64,000 nt of DNA from Eledone cirrhosa. Taxonomy: Eukaryota. Shown piece by piece: positions 1-64,000 of this stretch. Location: positions 34,100,001 to 34,164,000 of the forward strand of contig OZ024750.1 of the NCBI GenBank assembly GCA_964016885.1, written 5' to 3'. The notes beneath the pieces are model-generated. The model saw only the letters and a program-made list of their open reading frames with translations. It ran no database searches and had not been told where the DNA came from. Each line of letters opens with the position of its first letter. Position 1 is the first letter of the stretch. The position numbers were made by a program, and so were the translations under genes.

Positions 1-3000
1 GGACATCCAGTCCAGCCTGTAATGTGGTTGGTATTAGGAAGGACATCCAGTCCAGTCTGTCATGTGGTTGGTATTAGGGAGGACATCCAGTCCAGTCTGT
101 AATGTGGTCGGTATTAGGGAGGACATCCAGTCCAGTCTGTAATGTGGTTGGTATTAGGAAGGACATCCAGTCCAGTCTGTCATGTGGTTTGTATTAGGGA
201 GGACATCCAGTCCAGTCTGTAATGTGGTTGGTATTAGGAAGGACATCCAGTCCAGTCTGTCATGTGGTTGGTATTAGGAAGGACATCCAGTCCAGTCTGT
301 CATGTGGTTGGTATTAGGAAGGACATCCAGTCCAGTCTGTCATGTGGTTGGTATTAGGGAGGACATCCAGTCCAGTCTGTAATGTGGTTGGTATTAGGGA
401 GGACATCCAGTCCAGTCTGTAATGTGGTTGGTATTAGGGAGGACATCCAGTCCAGTCTGTCATGTGGTTGGTATTAGGGAGGACATCCAGTCCAGTCTGT
501 CATGTGGTTGGTATTAGGGAGGACATCCAGTGCAGTCTGTAATGTGGTTGGTATTAGGGAGGACATCCAGTTCAGTCTGTAATGTGGTTGGTATTAGGAA
601 GGACATCCAGTCCAGTCTGTAATGTGGTTGGTATTAGGATGGACATCCAGTCCAGTCTGTCATGTGGTTGGTATTAGGGAGGACATCCAGTCCAGCCTGT
701 AATGTGGTTGGTATTAGGGAGGACATCCAGTCCAGTCTGTCATGTGGTTGGTATTAGGGAGGACATCCAGTCCAGCCTGTAATGTGGTTGGTATTAGGGA
801 GGACATCCAGTCCAGTCTGTCATGTGGTTGGTATTAGGGAGGACATCCAGTCCAGCCTGTAATGTGGTTGGTATTAGGGAGGACATCCAGTTCAGTCTGT
901 AATGTGGTTGGTATTAGGAAGGACATCCAGTCCAGTCTGTAATGTGGTTGGTATTAGGAAGGACATCCAGTCCAGTCTGTAGTGTGGTTGGTATTAGGAA
1001 GGACATCCAGTCCAGTCTGTAATGTGGTTGGTATTAGGGAGGACATCCAGTCCAGTCTGTCATGTGGTTGGTATTAGGGAGGACATCCAGTTCAGTCTGT
1101 CATGTGGTTGGTATTAGGGAGGACATCCAGTCCAGCCTGTAATGTGGTTGGTATTAGGAAGGACATCCAGTCCAGTCTGTCATGTGGTTGGTATTAGGGA
1201 GGACATCCAGTCCAGTCTGTAACGTGGTTGGTATTAGGGAGGACATCCAGTCCAGTCTGTAATGTGGTTGGTATTAGGAAGGACATCCAGTCCAGTCTGT
1301 CATGTGGTTGGTATTAGGGAGGACATCCAGTCCAGTCTGTAATGTGGTTGGTATTAGGAAGGACATCCAGTCCAGTCTGTCATGTGGTTGGTATTAGGAA
1401 GGACATCCAGCCCAGTCTGTCATGTGGTTGGTATTAGGAAGGACATCCAGTCCAGTCTGTCATGTGGTTGGTATTAGGGAGGACATCCAGTCCAGTCTGT
1501 AATGTGGTTGGTATTAGGGAGGACATCCAGTCCAGTCTGTAATGTGGTTGGTATTAGGGAGGACATCCAGTCCAGTCTGTCATGTGGTTGGTATTAGGGA
1601 GGACATCCAGTCCAGTCTGTCATGTGGTTGGTATTAGGGAGGACATCCAGTCCAGTCTGTCATGTGGTTGGTATTAGGGAGGACATCCAGTCCAGTCTGT
1701 CATGTGGTTGGTATTAGGGAGGACATCCAGTCCAGTCTGTCATGTGGTTGTTATTAGGGAGGACATACAGTCCAGTCTGTAATGTGGTTGGTATTAGGGA
1801 GGACATCCAGTCCAGCCTGTCATGTGGTTGGTATTAGGGAGGACATCCAGTCCAGTCTGTCATGTGGTTGGTATTAGGGAGGACATCCAGTCCAGTCTGT
1901 AATGTAATTGGTATTAGGAAGGACATCCAGTCCAGCCTGTCATGTGGTTGGTATTAGGAAGGACATCCAGTCCAGCCTGTCATGTGGTTGGTATTAGGGA
2001 GGACATCCAGTCCAGTCTGTAATGTAATTGGTATTAGGAAGGACATCCAGTCCAGCCTGTCATGTGGTTGGTGTTAGGGAGGACATCCAGTCCAGTCTGT
2101 CATGTGGTTGGTATTAGGAAGGACATCCAGTCCAGTCTGTAGTGTGGTTGGTATTAGGAAGGACATCCAGTCCAGTCTGTAATGTGGTTGGTATTAGGGA
2201 GGACATCCAGTCCAGTCTGTCATGTGGTTGGTATTAGGGAGGACATCCAGTTCAGTCTGTCATGTGGTTGGTATGAGGGAGGACATCCAGTCCAGCCTGT
2301 AATGTGGTTGGTATTAGGAAGGACATCCAGTCCAGTCTGTCATGTGGTTGGTATTAGGGAGGACATCCAGTCCAGTCTGTAATGTGGTCGGTATTAGGGA
2401 GGACATCCAGTCCAGTCTGTAATGTGGTTGGTATTAGGAAGGACATCCAGTCCAGTCTGTCATGTGGTTTGTATTAGGGAGGACATCCAGTCCAGTCTGT
2501 AATGTGGTTGGTATTAGGAAGGACATCCAGTCCAGTCTGTCATGTGGTTGGTATTAGGAAGGACATCCAGTCCAGTCTGTCATGTGGTTGGTATTAGGAA
2601 GGACATCCAGTCCAGTCTGTCATGTGGTTGGTATTAGGGAGGACATCCAGTCCAGTCTGTAATGTGGTTGGTATTAGGGAGGACATCCAGTCCAGTCTGT
2701 AATGTGGTTGGTATTAGGGAGGACATCCAGTCCAGTCTGTCATGTGGTTGGTATTAGGGAGGACATCCAGTCCAGTCTGTCATGTGGTTGGTATTAGGGA
2801 GGACATCCAGTCCAGTCTGTCATGTGGTTGGTATTAGGGAGGACATCCAGTCCAGTCTGTCATGTGGTTGTTATTAGGGAGGACATACAGTCCAGTCTGT
2901 AATGTGGTTGGTATTAGGGAGGACATGCAGTCCAGCCTGTCATGTGGTTGGTATTAGGGAGGACATCCAGTCCAGTCTGTCATGTGGTTGGTATTAGGGA

Positions 3001-3800
3001 GGACATCCAGTCCAGTCTGTAATGTAATTGGTATTAGGAAGGACATCCAGTCCAGCCTGTCATGTGGTTGGTATTAGGAAGGACATCCAGTCCAGCCTGT
3101 CATGTGGTTGGTATTAGGGAGGACATCCAGTCCAGTCTGTAATGTAATTGGTATTAGGAAGGACATCCAGTCCAGCCTGTCATGTGGTTGGTGTTAGGGA
3201 GGACATCCAGTCCAGTCTGTCATGTGGTTGGTATTAGGGAGGACATCCAGTCCAGCCTGTAATGTGGTTGGTATTAGGGTAGGACATCCAGTCCAGTCTG
3301 TCATGTGGTTGGTATTAGGGGAGGACATCCAGTCCTGTCTGTAATGTGGTTGGTATTAGGGAGGACATCCAGTCCAGTCTGTAATGTGGTTGGTATTAGG
3401 AAGGACATCCAGTCCAGCCTGTAATGTGGTTGGTATTAGGGAGGACATCCAGTCCAGTCTGTAATGTGGTTGGTATTAGGGAGGACATCCAGTCCAGCCT
3501 GTAATGTGGTTGGTATTAGGGAGGACATCCAGTCCAGTCTGTAATGTGGTTGGTATTAGGGAGGACATCCAGTCCAGCCTGTAATGTGGTTGGTATTAGG
3601 GAGGACATCCAGTCCAGCCTGTAATGTGGTTGGTATTAGGGAGGACATCCAGTCCAGTCTGTAATGTAATTGGTATTAGGAAGGACATCCAGTCCAGCCT
3701 GTCATGTGGTTGGTATTAGGGAGGACATCCAGTCCAGTCTGTCATGTGGTTGGTATTAGGGAGGACATCCAGTCCAGCCTGTAATGTGGTTGGTATTAGG
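1..3800 (+). repeat. 40-bp tandem minisatellite, ~95 units, open at the window start; consensus GGACATCCAGTCCAG(T/C)CTGT(A/C)ATGTGGTTGGTATTAGG(G/A)A
   Basis: Directly visible 40-bp periodicity with three main polymorphic positions. The array ends at ~3800, running into AACAACATCCAACCATAGAAACC. Confidence 0.98.
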
Positions 3801-3950
3801 AACAACATCCAACCATAGAAACCATACCAAAAGTTTGGAACAAATGAGTGTAATGTGGTCCTCCAACATGTCTATGATGGCAGTAACTCTGAAAAGAACT
3901 GACTCAGTTTATAACCACCCCTACAACCCATATCAACATGGAAAACATAC
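3801..3950 (+). mobile_element. Degenerate 3' half of a family-C SINE, continuous with the last 40-bp unit
   Basis: TTAGGAACAACATCCAACCATAGAAACC...CAACCCATATCAACATGGAAAA resembles TTAGGAAGGGCATCCAGCTGTAGAAATC...TAACCCATGCTAGCGTGGAAGAA at 23784-23910. Confidence 0.6.
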
Positions 3951-4394: not shown

Positions 4395-4500
4395 TTATTT
4401 TGTCAAAGCTTTTGTCACCCATTCTGTGACCTCCTCAATGTCTATTTGTTCTATGTGTCTCCTCTTCTTTCTGGTCTTATTCTGATTACTCCATCTTGTC
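4395..4500 (-). mobile_element. Diverged relative of the Penelope-like terminal element at 13746-14257
   Basis: TGTCAAAGCTTTTGTCACCCATTCTGTGACCTCCTCAATG aligns with TGTCAAAGTTCTTTCGTCACACATTCTGTGACCTCTTCAGTG at 13886-13927. The hammerhead core is mutated in this copy. Confidence 0.55.
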
Positions 4501-13369: not shown

Positions 13370-13726
13370 ATCATCATCATCATCATCATCATCATTTTAT
13401 GTCCGCTTTTCCCTGCTTGCAAGGGTGGGACGGGAACTGATTCTGGCTTGATTTCTACAGCTGGATGCCCTTCCTAACACCAACCTCATTTACAGTGAGT
13501 GCTGGGTGCTTTTTTTGCCGTGGCACCTACATGACCACTTTACAGTGGAATGATATGGACCCCAGTCCCTATCATCTCATTTCTACAGCTGAGTAAACTG
13601 GAGCAATGTGAAATAAAGTGTCTTGCTCAAGGAAACAACACATCACCCGGTCTGAGATGTGTTGTTTCCTTGAGCAAGACACTTTATTTCACATTGCTCC
13701 AGTTTACTCAGCTGTAGAAATGAGAT
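13370..13726 (-). mobile_element. Family-C (CORE-type) SINE whose 5' part is folded back as a perfect 71-bp inverted repeat
   Basis: (TCA)n tail at 13370 and body matching the reverse complement of 23570-23930. Arms at 13574-13644 and 13656-13726. Confidence 0.88.
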
Positions 13727-13886
13727 TATATATATATATATATATATATTGTTATGCTTTGGGGGAGCCATGACACGCACCAGTTGCTTTCACTGCAATT
13801 TATTATAAATTAAATTTATAAATTTAAGAATTTATAAATTTCCGGTTGGTTGGTTGGTTCCATAATCGGATGGTTGTTCATATATT

Positions 13887-13929
13887 GTCAAAGTTCTTTC
13901 GTCACACATTCTGTGACCTCTTCAGTGAC
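13887..13929 (-). ncRNA. Minimal type I hammerhead ribozyme motif
   Basis: Minus strand reads GUCA-CUGAAGA-G-GUCACA-GAAUG-UGUGAC-GAAA-GAAC-UU-UGAC. Stem I is GUCA/UGAC, the core is CUGAnGA, stem II is 6 bp, then GAAA, a stunted stem III and an NUH triplet (CUU). Confidence 0.65.
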
Positions 13930-14002
13930 TGGGGATTCTTTTCTTTGTTTTGTGCCTCTCCTTTGTTCTGTCCTACGCCATTTTGTTTTTGTGCGTGTTG
14001 AC

Positions 14003-14045
14003 AACACTGAAGAGGTCACAGAATGTGTGACGAAAGAACTTCGAC
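14003..14045 (+). ncRNA. Second hammerhead core (inverted copy) with a disrupted stem I
   Basis: CUGAAGA (14007-14013), G-GUCACA-GAAUG-UGUGAC, GAAA (14032-14035), GAACUU. The flanks AACA/CGAC do not pair. Confidence 0.45.
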
Positions 14046-14516
14046 AATATATGAACAACCGTCCGGTTATGGAACCAACCAACCAACCGGAAATTTATAA
14101 ACTCTTAAATTTATAAATTTAATTTATAATAAATTGGAGTGAAAGCAACTGGTGCGTGTGTTTCTTATTGGCAACATGACCCTCCCAAAGCATAACAATA
14201 TCGGTTTCAACACACGTTTTCAGATAAATAATCCTGCTAAACAAATTCAGAAACGAAATATATATATATATATATATGTAGATAAATCTACCAAAAGTTT
14301 ACGGTAGTGTCCAATCCGTATGAAGAACTCAATGTAATCCGGATATCATGAAAAGAGAAGATGCATTCAAAAACTACTTTCGGTGAAAAATAAATAATCT
14401 ATAGAATATGCATACCAACTCTAACACATATATATCCTAGAAACGATCGTAAAATAATGAATTTTTTTAAATATAAGGAACTGTTTCTTTGTTTCTTCAT
14501 TATTTTTTTAATAATT

Positions 14517-58407: not shown

Positions 58408-58500
58408 AACTATAAAGTGGTAGTGCTGCTGCCACAACACACAGTCCCGCCTGTACAGTGGTAGTGCTGGTGCCACAGCAACACGTAGTCCACCCTGTAA
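58408..58500 (+). mobile_element. Family-C SINE internal segment leading into the 40-bp array
   Basis: GTGGTAGTGCTG(C/G)TGCCACA occurs twice, then AGTCCACCCTGTAATGTGGTTGG. These are the same units as at 10015-10320. Confidence 0.7.
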
Positions 58501-61500
58501 TGTGGTTGGTATTAGGAAGGACATCCAGTCCAGTCTGTAATGTGGTTGGTATTAGGGAGGACATCCAGTCCAGCCTGTAATGTGGTTGGTATTAGGGAGG
58601 ACATCCAGTCCAGTCTGTAATGTGGTTGGTATTAGGAAGGACATCCAGTCCAGTCTGTCATGTGGTATTAGGGAGGACATCCAGTCCAGCCTGTAATGTG
58701 GTTGGTATTACGGAGGACATCCAGTCCAGTCCAGTCTGTCATGTGGTTGGTATTAGGGAGGACATCCAGTCCAGCCTGTAATGTCGTTGGTATTAGGGAG
58801 GACATCCAGTCCAGTCCAGTCTGTCATGTGGTTGGTATTAGGGAGGACATCCAGTCCAGCCTGTAATGTGGTTGGTATTAGGAAGGACATCCAGTCCAGT
58901 CTGTAATGTGGTTGGTATTAGGGAGGACATCCAGTCCAGCCTGTAATGTGGTTGGTATTAGGAAGGACATCCAGTCCAGTCTGTAATGTGGTTGGTATTA
59001 GGGAGGACATCCAGTCCAGTCTGTCATGTGGTTGGTATTAGGAAGGACATCCAGTCCAGCCTGTAATGTGGTTGGTATTAGGGAGGACATCCAGTCCAGC
59101 CTGTAATGTGGTTGGTATTAGGAAGGACATCCAGTCCAGCCTGTAATGTGGTTGGTATTAGGGAGGACATCCAGTCCAGTCTGTAATGTGGTTGGTATTA
59201 GGGAGGACATCCAGTCCAGTCTGTAATGTGGTTGGTATTAGGGAGGACATCCAGTCCAGCCTGTAATGTGGTTGGTATTAGGAAAGACATCCAGTCCAGT
59301 CTGTAATGTGGTTGGTATTAGGGAGGACATCCAGTCCAGTCTGTCATGTGGTTGGTATTAGGGAGGACATCCAGTCCAGCCTGTAATGTGGTTGGTATTA
59401 GGGAGGACATCCAGTCCAGTCTGTAATGTGGTTGGTATTAGGGAGGACATCCAGTCCAGTCTGTAATGTGGTTGGTATTAGGGAGGACATCCAGTCCAGT
59501 CTGTAATGTGGTTGGTATTAGGAAGGACATCCAGTCCAGTCTGTAATGTGGTTGGTATTAGGAAGGATATCCAGTCCAGTCTGTCATGTGGTTGGTATTA
59601 GGAAGGACATCCAGTCCAGTCTGTCATGTGGTTGGTATTAGGAAGGACATCCAGTCCAGTCTGTCATGTGGTTGGTATTAGGAAGGACATCCAGTCCAGT
59701 CTGTAATGTGGTTGGTATTAGGAAGGACATCCAGTCCAGTCTGTAATGTGGTTGGTATTAGGAAGGACATCCAGTCCAGTCTGTAATGTGGTTGGTATTA
59801 GGAAGGACATCCAGTCCAGTCTGTAATGTGGTTGGTATTAGGAAGGACATCCAGTCCAGTCTGTCATGTGGTTGGTATTAGGAAGGACATCCAGTCCAGT
59901 CTGTCATGTGGTTGGTATTAGGAAGGACATCCAGTCCAGTCTGTAATGTGGTTGGTATTAGGAAGGACATCCAGTCCAGTCTGTAATGTGGTTGGTATTA
60001 GGGAGGACATCCAGTCCAGTCTGTAATGTGGTTGGTATTAGGAAGGACATCCAGTCCAGTCTGTCATGTGGTTGGTATTAGGGAGGACATCCAGTCCAGT
60101 CTGTAATGTGGTTGGTATTAGGGAGGACATCCAGTCCAGTCTGTAATGTGGTTGGTATTAGGAAGGACATCCAGTCCAGTCTGTCATGTGGTTGGTATTA
60201 GGGAGGACATCCAGTCCAGTCTGTAATGTGGTTGGTATTAGGGAGGACATCCAGTCCAGCCTGTAATGTGGTTGGTATTAGGAAGGACATCCAGTCCAGC
60301 CTGTAATGTGGTTGGTATTATGGAGGACATCCAGTCCAGTCTGTCATGTGGTTGGTATTAGGGAGGACATCCAGTCCAGTCTGTAATGTGGTTGGTATTA
60401 GGGAGGACATCCAGTCCAGCCTGTAATGTGGTTGGTATTAGGGAGGACATCCAGTCCAGCCTGTAATGTGGTTGGTATTAGGGAGGACATCCAGTCCAGC
60501 CTGTAATGTGGTTGGTATTAGGGAGGACATCCAGTCCAGTCTGTCATGTGGTTGGTATTAGGAAGGACATCCAGTCCAGCCTGTAATGTGGTTGGTATTA
60601 GGAAGGACATCCAGTCCAGCCTGTAATGTGGTTGGTATTAGGAAGGACATCCAGTCCAGTCTGTCATGTGGTTGGTATTAGGAAGGACATCCAGTCCAGT
60701 CTGTAATGTGGTTGGTATTAGGAAGGACATCCAGTCCAGTCTGTAATGTGGTTGGTATTAGGAAGGACATCCAGTCCAGTCTGTCATGTGGTTGGTATTA
60801 GGAAGGACATCCAGTCCAGTCTGTCATGTGGTTGGTATTAGGAAGGACATCCAGTCCAGTCTGTCATGTGGTTGGTATTAGGGAGGACATCCAGTCCAGC
60901 CTGTAATGTGGTTGGTATTAGGGAGGACATCCAGTCCAGTCTGTCATGTGGTTGGTATTAGGGAGGACATCCAGTCCAGCCTGTAATGTGGTTGGTATTA
61001 GGGAGGACATCCAGTCCAGCCTGTAATGTGGTTGGTATTAGGGAGGACATCCAGTCCAGCCTGTAATGTGGTTGGTATTAGGGAGGACATCCAGTCCAGC
61101 CTGTAATGTGGTTGGTATTAGGGAGGACATCCAGTCCAGTCTGTCATGTGGTTGGTATTAGGAAGGACATCCAGTCCAGCCTGTAATGTGGTTGGTATTA
61201 GGAAGGACATCCAGTCCAGCCTGTAATGTGGTTGGTATTAGGAAGGACATCCAGTCCAGTCTGTCATGTGGTTGGTATTAGGAAGCACATCCAGTCCAGT
61301 CTGTAATGTGGTTGGTATTAGGAAGGACATCCAGTCCAGTCTGTAATGTGGTTGGTATTAGGAAGGACATCCAGTCCAGTCTGTCATGTGGTTGGTATTA
61401 GGAAGGACATCCAGTCCAGTCTGTCATGTGGTTGGTATTAGGAAGGACATCCAGTCCAGTCTGTCATGTGGTTGGTATTAGGGAGGACATCCAGTCCAGC

Positions 61501-64000
61501 CTGTAATGTGGTTGGTATTAGAGAGGACATCCAGTCCAGCCTGTAATGTGGTTGGTATTAGGAAGGACATCCAGTCCAGTCTGTCATGTGGTTGGTATTA
61601 GGAAGGACATCCAGTCCAGTCTGTCATGTGGTTGGTATTAGGAAGGACATCCAGTCCAGTCTGTCATGTGGTTGGTATTAGGGAGGACATCCAGTCCAGT
61701 CTGTCATGTGGTTGGTATTAGGGAGGACATCCAGTCCAGTCTGTCATGTGGTTGGTATTAGGGAGGACATCCAGTCCAGTCTGTAATGTGGTTGGTATTA
61801 GGAAGGACATCCAGTCCAGTCTGTAATGTGGTTGGTATTAGGAAGGACATCCAGTCCAGTCTGTAATGTGGTTGGTATTAGGAAGGACATCCTGTCCAGT
61901 CTGTAATGTGGTTGGTATTAGGGAGGACATCCAGTCCAGTCTGTCATGTGGTTGGTATTAGGAAGGACATCCAGTCCAGTCTGTCATGTGGTTGGTATTA
62001 GGGAGGACATCCAGTCCAGTCTGTAATGCGGTTGGTATTAGGGAGGACATCCAGTACAGTCTGTAATGCGGTTGGTATTAGGGAGGACATCCAGTCCAGT
62101 CTGTAATGTGTTTGGTATTAGGGAGGACATCCAGTCCAGTCTGTAATGTGGTTGGTATTAGGAAGGACATCCAGTCCAGCCTGTAATGTGGTTGGTATTA
62201 GGAAGGACATCCAGTCCAGTCTGTCATGTGGTTGGTATTAGGAAAGACATCCAGTCCAGTCTGTAATGTGGTTGGTATTAGGAAGGACATCCAGTCCAGT
62301 CTGTCATGTGGTTGGTATTAGGAAAGACATCCAGTCCAGCCTGTAATGTGGTTGGTATTAGGAAGGACATCCAGTCCAGTCTGTAATGTGGTTGGTATTA
62401 GGAAGGACATCCAGTCCAGTCTGTCATGTGGTTGGTATTAGGGAGGACATCCAGTCCAGTCTGTAATGTGGTTGGTATTAGGGAGGACATCCAGTCCAGT
62501 CCAGTCTGTCATGTGGTTGGTATTAGGGAGGACATCCAGTCCAGCCTGTAATGTGGTTGGTATTAGGAAGGACATCCAGTCCAGCCTGTAATGTGGTTGG
62601 TATTAGGAAGGACATCCAGTCCAGCCTGTAATGTGGTTGGTATTAGGGAGGACATCCAGTCCAGCCTGTAATGTGGTTGGTATTAGGAAGGACATCCATT
62701 CCAGCCTGTAATGTGGTTGGTATTAGGGAGGACATCCAGTCCAGTCTGTAATGTGGTTGGTATTAGGAAGGACATCCAGTCCAGCCTGTAATGTGGTTGG
62801 TATTAGGGAGGACATCCAGTCCAGCCTGTAATGTGGTTGGTATTAGGGAGGACATCCAGTCCAGTCTGTCATGTGGTTGGTATTAGGAAGGACATCCAGT
62901 CCAGTCTGTCATGTGGTTGGTATTAGGAAGGACATCCAGTCCAGTCTGTCATGTGGTTGGTATTAGGGAGGACATCCAGTCCAGTCTGTAATGTGGTTGG
63001 TATTAGGGAGGACATCCAGTCCAGTCCAGTCTGTCATGTGGTTGGTATTAGGGAGGACATCCAGTCCAGCCTGTAATGTGGTTGGTATTAGGAAGGACAT
63101 CCAGTCCAGCCTGTAATGTGGTTGGTATTAGGGAGGACATCCAGTCCAGCCTGTAATGTGGTTGGTATTAGGAAGGACATCCAGTCCAGCCTGTAATGTG
63201 GTTGGTATTAGGGAGGACATCCAGTCCAGTCTGTAATGTGGTTGGTATTAGGAAGGACATCCAGTCCAGCCTGTAATGTGGTTGGTATTAGGGAGGACAT
63301 CCAGTCCAGCCTGTAATGTGGTTGGTATTAGGGAGGACATCCAGTCCAGTCTGTCATGTGGTTGGTATTAGGGAGGACATCCAGTCCAGTCTGTCATGTG
63401 GTTGGTATTAGGGAGGACATCCAGTCCACCCTGTCATGTGGTTGGTATTAGGGAGGACATCCAGTCCAGTCTGTAATGTGTTTGGTATTAGGAAGGACAT
63501 CCAGTCCAGTCTGTCATGTGGTTGGTATTAGGAAGGACATCCAGTCCAGTCTGTCATGTGGTTGGTATTAGGAAGGACATCCAGTCCACCCTGTCATGTG
63601 GTTGGTATTAGGGAGGACATCCAGTCCAGTCTGTCATGTGGTTGGTATTAGGGAGGACATCCAGTCCAGTCTGTAATGTGGTTGGTATTAGGAAGGACAT
63701 CCAGTCCACCCTGTCATGTGGTTGGTATTAGGGAGGACATCCAGTCCAGTCTGTCATGTGGTTGGTATTAGGGAGGACATCCAGTCCAGTCTGTAATGTG
63801 GTTGGTATTAGGGAGGACATCCAGTCCAGTCTGTCATGTGGTTGGTATTAGGAAAGACATCCAGTCCAGTCTGTCATGTGGTTGGTATTAGGAAGGACAT
63901 CCAGTCCAGTCTGTAATGTGGTTGGTATTAGGAAGGACATCCAGTCCAGTCTGTCATGTGGTTGGTATTAGGGAGGACATCCAGTCCAGTCTGTAATGTG
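58487..64000 (+). repeat. 40-bp tandem minisatellite, ~138 units, open at the window end; same unit and orientation as 1-3800
   Basis: Same consensus as 1-3800, with occasional CCAGT 5-bp duplications (~58731, 58811, 62501, 63021). Confidence 0.98.

What the first reader, a model, noticed from the sequence alone, without database searches (positions are those of the whole stretch)
13746..14257. (TA)n-flanked inverted-repeat element carrying back-to-back hammerhead ribozyme cores
Seen: ~180-bp arms fold on each other around a 77-bp spacer. The minus strand at 13887-13929 reads GUCA CUGAAGA G GUCACA GAAUG UGUGAC GAAA GAAC UU UGAC, a full hammerhead core with stems I and II and a minimal stem III. 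The plus arm repeats the core at 14007-14041 with stem I broken, and a decayed relative at ~4400 keeps a palindromic AAAGCTTT in the stem III position. Established: Penelope-like retroelements carry minimal type I hammerheads in their terminal repeats, often form inverted-end insertions and may cleave as dimers. Inference: this is a non-coding PLE terminus or a small ribozyme-bearing (retrozyme-like) family targeting (TA)n. No RT or GIY-YIG ORF is present here.
Basis: partly seen in the sequence, partly recalled or inferred. Interest (0 to 1): 0.75.

Follow-up and report, generated by a model that had tools for sequence, protein, structure and literature searches.

The report
Penelope retrotransposon end copied from mRNA
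This is an ordinary two-armed fragment of a very abundant Penelope-type jumping gene with a known kind of self-cutting RNA motif, but the ends of its many copies suggest that they were likely copied from capped RNA that the motif had not yet cut.

Summary
The inverted repeat and one complete minimal hammerhead are real. They are two head-to-head, 5'-truncated ends (pseudo-LTRs) of a young, high-copy Penelope-like element: 5,085 exact copies of the 43-nt hammerhead in this genome, and a 4,035-bp unit with RT and C-terminal GIY-YIG elsewhere. The '77-bp spacer' is element sequence. The two cores lie on opposite strands and cannot dimerise in one RNA. This class, opposite-strand pairs included, was described in 2014, so it is a new member of a known kind; the scan noted the two fixed ends on other Penelope-type families of this genome. 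What is added: arms stop in a 25-nt zone just upstream of a YY1-like motif (39 of 94 arms reaching it), usually after a G (21 of 24 junctions; control 1 of 5), and not at the ribozyme cut site (0 of 84). This points to a capped, sense, uncut mRNA as template, against the antisense self-priming model. The core is nevertheless conserved, with compensatory stem II changes in a sister family. Cleavage and transcription are untested: no RNA run was listed.

The parts
13727..13749 (.). left (TA)n target
   Evidence: sequence; a target-site duplication cannot be resolved inside (TA)n
13746..14000 (-). inverted short arm: pLTR from element position -326 to -60 (0 = last base of the element), with a private 15-nt deletion
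   Evidence: 46 alignment ends fall exactly at -60 in other copies
13887..13929 (-). complete minimal type I hammerhead: stem I 4 bp, extra G between A9 and G10.1, stem II 6 bp, helix III A-U (G-C) with AA loop, predicted cut after U17 (13891)
   Evidence: 5,085 exact copies; features as in PMC4209133
13976..13985 (-). YY1-like motif (core GCCAT on the plus strand), 8-20 nt downstream of the zone where arms end; likely promoter element
   Evidence: family form matches the last 10 nt of the mouse L1 Tf motif; kept in sister family and in the 4400 relative
13995..14007 (.). head-to-head junction; the G at 14000 is shared by both arms and is the likely cap-derived base; the right arm starts at -327 and jumps by a CAC overlap to -250 (about 70 nt deleted)
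   Evidence: sequence read against the unit in L031; the parse is inference
14001..14261 (+). direct long arm of the pLTR, to the fixed 3' end
   Evidence: 97-98% identical to the 39 other scored copies
14007..14045 (+). second hammerhead core, stem I broken (5' strand deleted, U1.1 to C at 14042)
14176..14261 (+). first 86 nt of the element's ORF (ATG at 14176); copies L007, L012, L064 run on into the ORF
14202..14261 (+). about 60-bp 'tail' between the two fixed ends (-60 and 0), the likely two reverse-transcription start sites
   Evidence: loose ends followed by (TA)n at both places in public contigs; tail model from PMC11167929
14258..14277 (.). right (TA)n target
   Evidence: sequence
4396..4443 (-). 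decayed hammerhead of an older related copy (C3 and G12 lost), YY1-like motif about 60 nt upstream

Best explanation
The locus is a dead, two-armed insertion of the pseudo-LTR of a young Penelope-like retrotransposon in (TA)n, likely made by the element's RT-endonuclease copying one capped, sense RNA, whose hammerhead was still uncut, from both ends of a DNA break. Shown: identity with the end of an RT + GIY-YIG element, two fixed 3' ends, head-to-head arms, (TA)n targets, a zone of 5' ends with a G bias, a conserved hammerhead. Inferred: Pol II starts at C|A sites near -330..-310, positioned by the YY1-like motif; the protein nicks (TA)n on both strands; RT starts inside the ORF at 0 on one strand and at -60 on the other, runs through the hammerhead, copies the cap as a C and stops; the two cDNA ends join head to head, often by a 1-nt C:G overlap; the long palindrome is then often made asymmetric by a microhomology deletion, as in the right arm here. 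The hammerhead is under selection in the master lineages and likely cuts slowly or only with protein help, at another step (processing of read-through or 3' pLTR RNA, circles).
For: Unit of 4,035 bp between two pLTRs in L031; RT RVT_1 E=6e-4, GIY-YIG E=1e-5 above cut-off; 99 relatives, best 45% over 497 aa. 135 of 163 alignment ends in the last 130 nt at just two positions, 46 of them at the unselected -60. 32 of 77 long arms have an inverted -60 end within 1.4 kb upstream, 70 of 77 a TA-like flank. 39 of 94 arms that reach -305 end by -330, against 47 of 582 in nine other 25-nt bins; none of 42 such arms continues upstream; exact 20-mers drop from 6,689 to 3,409 across the zone; the zone is unstructured. 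Junction base G:T = 21:3 at two C|A sites in the zone against 1:4 at a matched site outside it, p=0.007; about 95 junctions per site against 5. 0 of 84 unselected arms end at the cut site. 0 shared variants in 31 core and stem sites against 12 in 72 flank sites; sister family with the same core and two compensatory stem II pairs.
Against: 15 of the 21 junction Gs also fit the partner arm, so only 6 are clearly untemplated; the pattern allowed only G or T, and 60 of 478 matches were read. RTs can add an untemplated C at any run-off, so G shows a template end more than a cap. About half of the arms run past the zone, so other templates (read-through, tandem or circular RNA) supply them. 3-4 junctions do sit at the cut site, each explainable by stem I overlap; that search missed T-flanked junctions. 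Two arms of one insertion are not independent counts. Private changes in stems are as frequent as in flanks (2.5% against 1.8%). Stem I of the sister family is imperfect, the triplet is CUU and helix III is unstable, so cleavage may be very weak. No intact ORF was found in the six long loci read.
Confidence: 0.72

Rival explanations
1. Same element, but the head-to-head arms arise by self-priming on an antisense RNA (or fold-back of one cDNA), as proposed in PMC3846280; the zone of ends marks an antisense 3' end or a place that folds back easily.
For: Many junctions are small palindromes with 1-5 nt loops; 15 of 21 Gs fit the partner arm; the paper reports the same palindromic junctions.
Against: The two arms end at different fixed outer sites (0 and -60) that match the two start sites of a sense template in vitro; single arms that abut (TA)n or unrelated DNA also end in the zone, some with an extra G (L163, L090, L057); a YY1-like motif lies just inside in the L1-like orientation.
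Confidence: 0.12
2. The short arms are made from a hammerhead-cut and re-ligated circular RNA or from cut linear RNA, as proposed in PMC4209133; the 5' zone is a stall or joining hot spot in (CA)n-rich sequence.
For: The core is under selection; half the arms run through the zone into the endonuclease gene, which a circle would allow.
Against: Cut linear RNA would leave ends at -215 (0 of 84); a circle has no end at -320; no structure there; a G bias is not expected.
Confidence: 0.1
3. A separate non-autonomous, retrozyme- or SINE-like family of about 320 bp that propagates itself from solo copies.
For: Short copies far outnumber the ORF (contig depth over the pLTR is hundreds of times that over the ORF start, a rough figure); solo copies keep the YY1-like motif.
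Against: No separate subfamily or fixed 5' base; sequence is collinear with the coding element; solo copies hold only 86 nt of the ORF, whereas the anole element needs 172 nt; no short tandem arrays in the loci read.
Confidence: 0.05
4. A DNA transposon or MITE with terminal inverted repeats, or a chance or assembly palindrome.
For: Long inverted arms in (TA)n; no public contig bridged this locus's junction (inconclusive).
Against: Arm lengths differ from copy to copy, most copies are single-armed or unequal, and they run into RT and GIY-YIG; the two arms differ at several sites.
Confidence: 0.01

Closest known systems
Minimal hammerheads of metazoan Penelope-like elements (Cervera and de la Pena 2014, PMC4209133; parts 1-2 of 4 read)
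   Same: Type I core in the pLTR, stem I 4-5 bp, long stem II, extra base between 9 and 10.1, G10.1-C11.1, mostly solo copies, pairs 100-700 bp apart on opposite strands.
   Different: Loop 3 is not palindromic here, the triplet is CUU, and copies are very uniform (5,085 identical), more like D. virilis Penelope than the variable families described.
C-terminal EN+ PLEs of the Neptune / Nematis groups (Craig et al. 2021, PMC8557442; sections 3 and 11, passages, supplement table rows)
   Same: RT then GIY-YIG with CCHH, CX4CxxC linker finger, partial tandems, inverted 5'-truncated copy, tail at one end, (TA)n targets.
   Different: Tail about 60 bp rather than 30-40; DKS for DKG; short linker (7 aa against 23-29 in long-linker relatives). 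The supplement table searched lists only Naiad families for octopus in the rows shown; its alignments were not held.
Poseidon of Anolis carolinensis (Frangieh et al. 2024, PMC11167929; parts 1-2 of 4 read)
   Same: Two RT start sites inside the ORF that bound the tail, both strands nicked and extended, AT-rich target, uncut RNA as main substrate, no RNA reads ending at the cut site.
   Different: That was in vitro; here the evidence is a genomic footprint. The ORF starts 165 nt downstream of the core here, inside stem II there.
LINE-1 / SVA full-length 5' ends (PMC11602158, PMC4859970; passages read)
   Same: YY1 motif just downstream of the start; untemplated G read as the copied cap.
   Different: Non-LTR elements prime at the poly(A) 3' end and give no two-armed insertions; this is a likeness of footprint, not kinship.
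Animal non-LTR retrozymes (10.64898/2026.07.22.740005; abstract and passages read)
   Same: Type I hammerhead, related to pLTRs.
   Different: Retrozymes are tandem arrays of a non-coding unit; this is the end of the coding element.

Membership tests
Penelope-like element (EN+, C-terminal) | Single ORF with PLE-type RT followed by GIY-YIG endonuclease | tested here: met
   L031, L033, L035; ORF broken by frameshifts and stops in the copies read
Penelope-like element (EN+, C-terminal) | CCHH motif within the GIY-YIG domain | tested here: met
   two Cys between the VVY and YIG motifs and two later His, L033 frame
Penelope-like element (EN+, C-terminal) | pLTRs from partial tandems, 5' truncation, inverted 5' copy, tail at one end | tested here: met
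Penelope-like element (EN+, C-terminal) | Target-site duplication | tested here: inconclusive
   both flanks are (TA)n
Neptune / Nematis group | CX2-5CxxC finger in the linker | tested here: met
   CX4CxxC in L035
Nematis clade | Reduced linker and RT grouping with Nematis references | tested here: inconclusive
   7-aa spacing and a clade apart from long-linker PLEs in a quick tree of 24 rows, but no labelled Nematis or Neptune sequence was on hand
Naiad / Chlamys / Hydra | N-terminal endonuclease (Naiad, Chlamys) or loss of CCHH (Hydra) | tested here: not met
   endonuclease is C-terminal with CCHH
Minimal type I hammerhead of PLEs | CUGAnGA / GAAA / UH core, stems I and II, extra base at 9a, G10.1-C11.1 | tested here: met
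   85 of 92 spanning arms with intact core (partly selected for it)
Minimal type I hammerhead of PLEs | Conservation above flanks and stem covariation | tested here: met
   0 shared variants in 31 core and stem sites against 12 in 72; two compensatory stem II pairs, one event between two families
Minimal type I hammerhead of PLEs | Palindromic 15.2-16.2 / loop 3 for dimer formation | tested here: not met
   AA or AG loop, no stable self-dimer
Minimal type I hammerhead of PLEs | Self-cleavage | not testable with these tools
   needs a bench assay
Rfam hammerhead families | Match to a covariance model | tested here: not met
   no hammerhead hit at E up to 1 (window) or 10 (512 nt)
Non-LTR retrozyme | Tandem arrays of a non-coding 150-400 nt unit with one hammerhead each | tested here: not met
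   no such arrays in the 40 loci or the 29; sequence is the end of a coding element
MITE / TIR transposon | Fixed terminal inverted repeats and fixed length | tested here: not met
   arm lengths vary from about 30 to 3,200 nt

The most novel reading that the evidence does not exclude
Thousands of insertions of this family record the 5' cap and start site of a sense mRNA that was reverse-transcribed through an uncut hammerhead from both ends of one break. Penelope inverted ends would then be two-ended target-primed copies of one capped RNA, not antisense self-priming, the pLTR promoter would be YY1-positioned as in LINE-1, and the conserved hammerhead would act at a step other than making the template.
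Probability: 0.6. Interest if true: 0.58.

Novelty: new member of a known kind. Interest (0 to 1): 0.4.

Why it matters
The element and ribozyme type are known. The value is as a natural data set: which strand Penelope elements copy, how their inverted ends form and whether the hammerhead cuts before integration are open (PMC3846280 favours antisense self-priming, PMC4209133 cut and circular RNA, PMC11167929 uncut RNA in vitro). A family with more than 6,000 young arms, two fixed outer ends and a G-marked inner zone lets these models be told apart by a genome-wide parse plus one CAGE library. Searches 'Penelope, untemplated, cap, pLTR' and 'Penelope-like, YY1' listed no paper whose listing reports this footprint; subscription papers on the D. 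virilis promoter were not searchable.

Tried and rejected
Rfam: no hammerhead hit; only low-complexity miRNA matches. RNA evidence: no RNA holder listed; contigs of coded runs hold the family with the same two ends but none bridged this locus, which proves nothing. Dimer between the two cores of the locus: rejected, opposite strands. Palindromic helix III as family trait: rejected. A-to-I editing scars, a lead from earlier notes: the window arms carry only 2-3 private changes of that type each and the pooled spectra show no A>G excess. A 5'-UTR intron ending at the AG before stem I: no such joint among those listed (list cut) and the stretch is purine-rich; not pursued. BLAST break in the (CA)n run as cause of the 5' zone: rejected, 0 of 42 arms continue. 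Core-versus-flank figures were set aside because the sets were selected on the core; one search repeats them on 63 unselected arms. The site B row was a script error and was redone. Clade naming by tree: no labelled references, careful tree unfinished. Loci dropped before the counts: 11 that repeated places already held or were the reference, alignments under 45 nt, arms cut by a locus edge.

Full report
Observation. A type I descriptor (core, stem II of 4 or more pairs with an optional extra base, A15.1-U16.1, stem I of 4 or more pairs) hits once in the window, at 13887-13929, against 2 of 200 shuffles of the 30-kb non-satellite part, and 0 of 200 with the stricter settings that the hit meets. 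Rfam finds no hammerhead. The plus core lacks the 5' strand of stem I.

What it is. A search of the own genome with the right arm gave 1,867 candidates, of which 40 were scored, at 97-98% identity. The exact 43-nt hammerhead occurs 5,085 times and a 20-mer upstream of it 6,689 times. Copies share the 3' end, vary at the 5' end, and the long ones run upstream into a GIY-YIG endonuclease and an RT. L031 holds a whole unit of 4,035 bp between two repeats; its ORF is broken, and no intact ORF was seen in the six long loci read. RT scores RVT_1 at E=6e-4 (below cut-off), the endonuclease of L033 GIY-YIG at E=1e-5 (above cut-off); 99 unnamed proteins of 870-1,500 aa are related, the best at 45% identity over 497 aa. 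A CX4CxxC finger and the CCHH motif place it with Neptune or Nematis by the criteria of PMC8557442; the short linker and a separate clade in a quick tree make Nematis likely, but no labelled reference was on hand. That the genome is an octopus rests on earlier scan notes and recall, not on a call of mine.

Anatomy of the locus. With 0 as the last base of the element, the left arm is -326..-60 on the minus strand (13746-14000) and the right arm -252..0 on the plus strand (14005-14261). The 'spacer' is thus the upstream part of the left arm. The seven bases at 14001-14007 match -327..-321, so the right arm most simply began at -327 and lost about 70 nt by a CAC overlap (inference from the sequence). 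The ORF starts at -85, so both outer ends lie inside the ORF's first codons. Of 163 alignment ends in the last 130 nt, 89 fall at 0 (selected for) and 46 at -60 (not selected for); contigs of coded public runs show loose (TA)n ends at the same two places. Of 77 long arms, 32 have an inverted -60 end within 1.4 kb upstream, 70 a TA-like flank, and 3 run on into the ORF. This is the tail and inverted-copy pattern of PMC8557442, and matches the two internal RT start sites, used on both nicked strands, of PMC11167929.

The ribozyme. It has the traits listed for metazoan PLE minimal hammerheads in PMC4209133, which also reports pairs on opposite strands 100-700 bp apart. In 63 arms not selected for the motif, no variant shared by three or more copies falls in 11 core or 20 stem sites, against 12 in 72 flank sites; private changes are 0.6% in the core, 2.5% in stems and 1.8% in flanks. 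A sister family (60-69% protein identity) keeps the core and G10.1-C11.1 and changes two stem II pairs on both sides; a branch of it changes only the free positions 9a, loop 3 and 17. The ten aligned rows were hand-picked from patterns that asked for change, so the covariation stands for one or two events. Against strong activity: the triplet is CUU, helix III is not palindromic and gives no stable dimer, and stem I of the sister family is imperfect. The two cores of this locus are on opposite strands, and a read-through RNA folds into one long hairpin, so the locus itself is unlikely to cleave.

The template. If cut linear RNA were copied, arms would end at -215: 0 of 84 unselected arms do. 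A genome-wide pattern for ends at that site with non-T flanks gave 14 matches, of which 7 keep the hammerhead upstream, 3 are deletions or junctions further upstream, and 4 are junctions at the site, each through a 4-5 nt overlap; T-flanked junctions were not visible to it. Instead 39 of 94 arms that reach -305 end by -330, against 47 of 582 in nine other bins; exact 20-mers halve across the zone; it is not a BLAST break or a hairpin. A YY1-like motif lies 8-20 nt downstream; the family form equals the last 10 nt of the mouse L1 Tf motif, and human L1 uses such a site to fix its start; the motif is kept in the sister family and in the 4400 relative. Upstream ETS- and NRF1-like words are recalled motifs, not tested. 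At two C|A sites in the zone I read 30 of 217 and 30 of 261 matches: 24 are junctions, 21 with G and 3 with T before the first base; at a matched site outside, all 78 matches gave 5 junctions, 1 G and 4 T (p=0.007). An extra G at full-length L1 and SVA ends is read as the copied cap. Limits: 15 of the 21 Gs also fit the partner arm (expected if the cap-derived C anneals to a G, but not proof), A and C were excluded by the pattern, and about half of all arms run past the zone and need longer or circular templates.

Verdict. Membership of the Penelope-like elements and of their minimal hammerheads is secure (about 0.97). The mechanism, two-ended copying of a capped, uncut, sense RNA, is the best reading (0.72) and bears on the antisense self-priming model of PMC3846280 (discussion read) and the cut-and-circle model of PMC4209133. 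Earlier scan notes report two fixed ends and two-armed insertions for retrozymes of this genome; none listed mentions the cap footprint, and none matched this sequence. Supplementary alignments of PMC8557442 and figures of PMC4209133 could not be seen and may already hold this family or its hammerhead. Interest 0.4.

Noticed in passing
window 13572-13726: A 71-bp perfect fold-back of a common SINE-like repeat abuts the left (TA)n; hairpins of 25 bp or more occur in 4 of 118 arm flanks against 5 of 908 control windows, so insertion may sometimes fold back the target DNA.
   Followed up: partly
L117-L145; L147, L149, L153, L155: Sister PLE family and a sub-branch with the same hammerhead core, YY1-like motif and -60 end; the sub-branch differs almost only at free positions of the ribozyme.
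   Followed up: partly
element -258..-250 and -170..-135: Two smaller clusters of 5' ends, at a short palindrome in stem I and at an AT-rich palindrome.
   Followed up: no
L036:3708-6032: An open 775-aa frame of a different, long-linker PLE (RT and GIY-YIG) 1.5 kb from a copy of this family.
   Followed up: partly
L031:1470-2050: The ORF has a long Thr/Asn/His-rich, repeat-derived stretch before the RT, like the N-rich inserts described for rotifer PLEs.
   Followed up: no
L034:2183-4763: Two long frames that look like a Helitron-type helicase (by eye, recalled).
   Followed up: no
window 33895-56420; 1-3811; 58487-64000: A 22.5-kb array of a 30-bp unit (751 copies, 95% alike) and arrays of a 40-bp unit at both ends of the window.
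   Followed up: no
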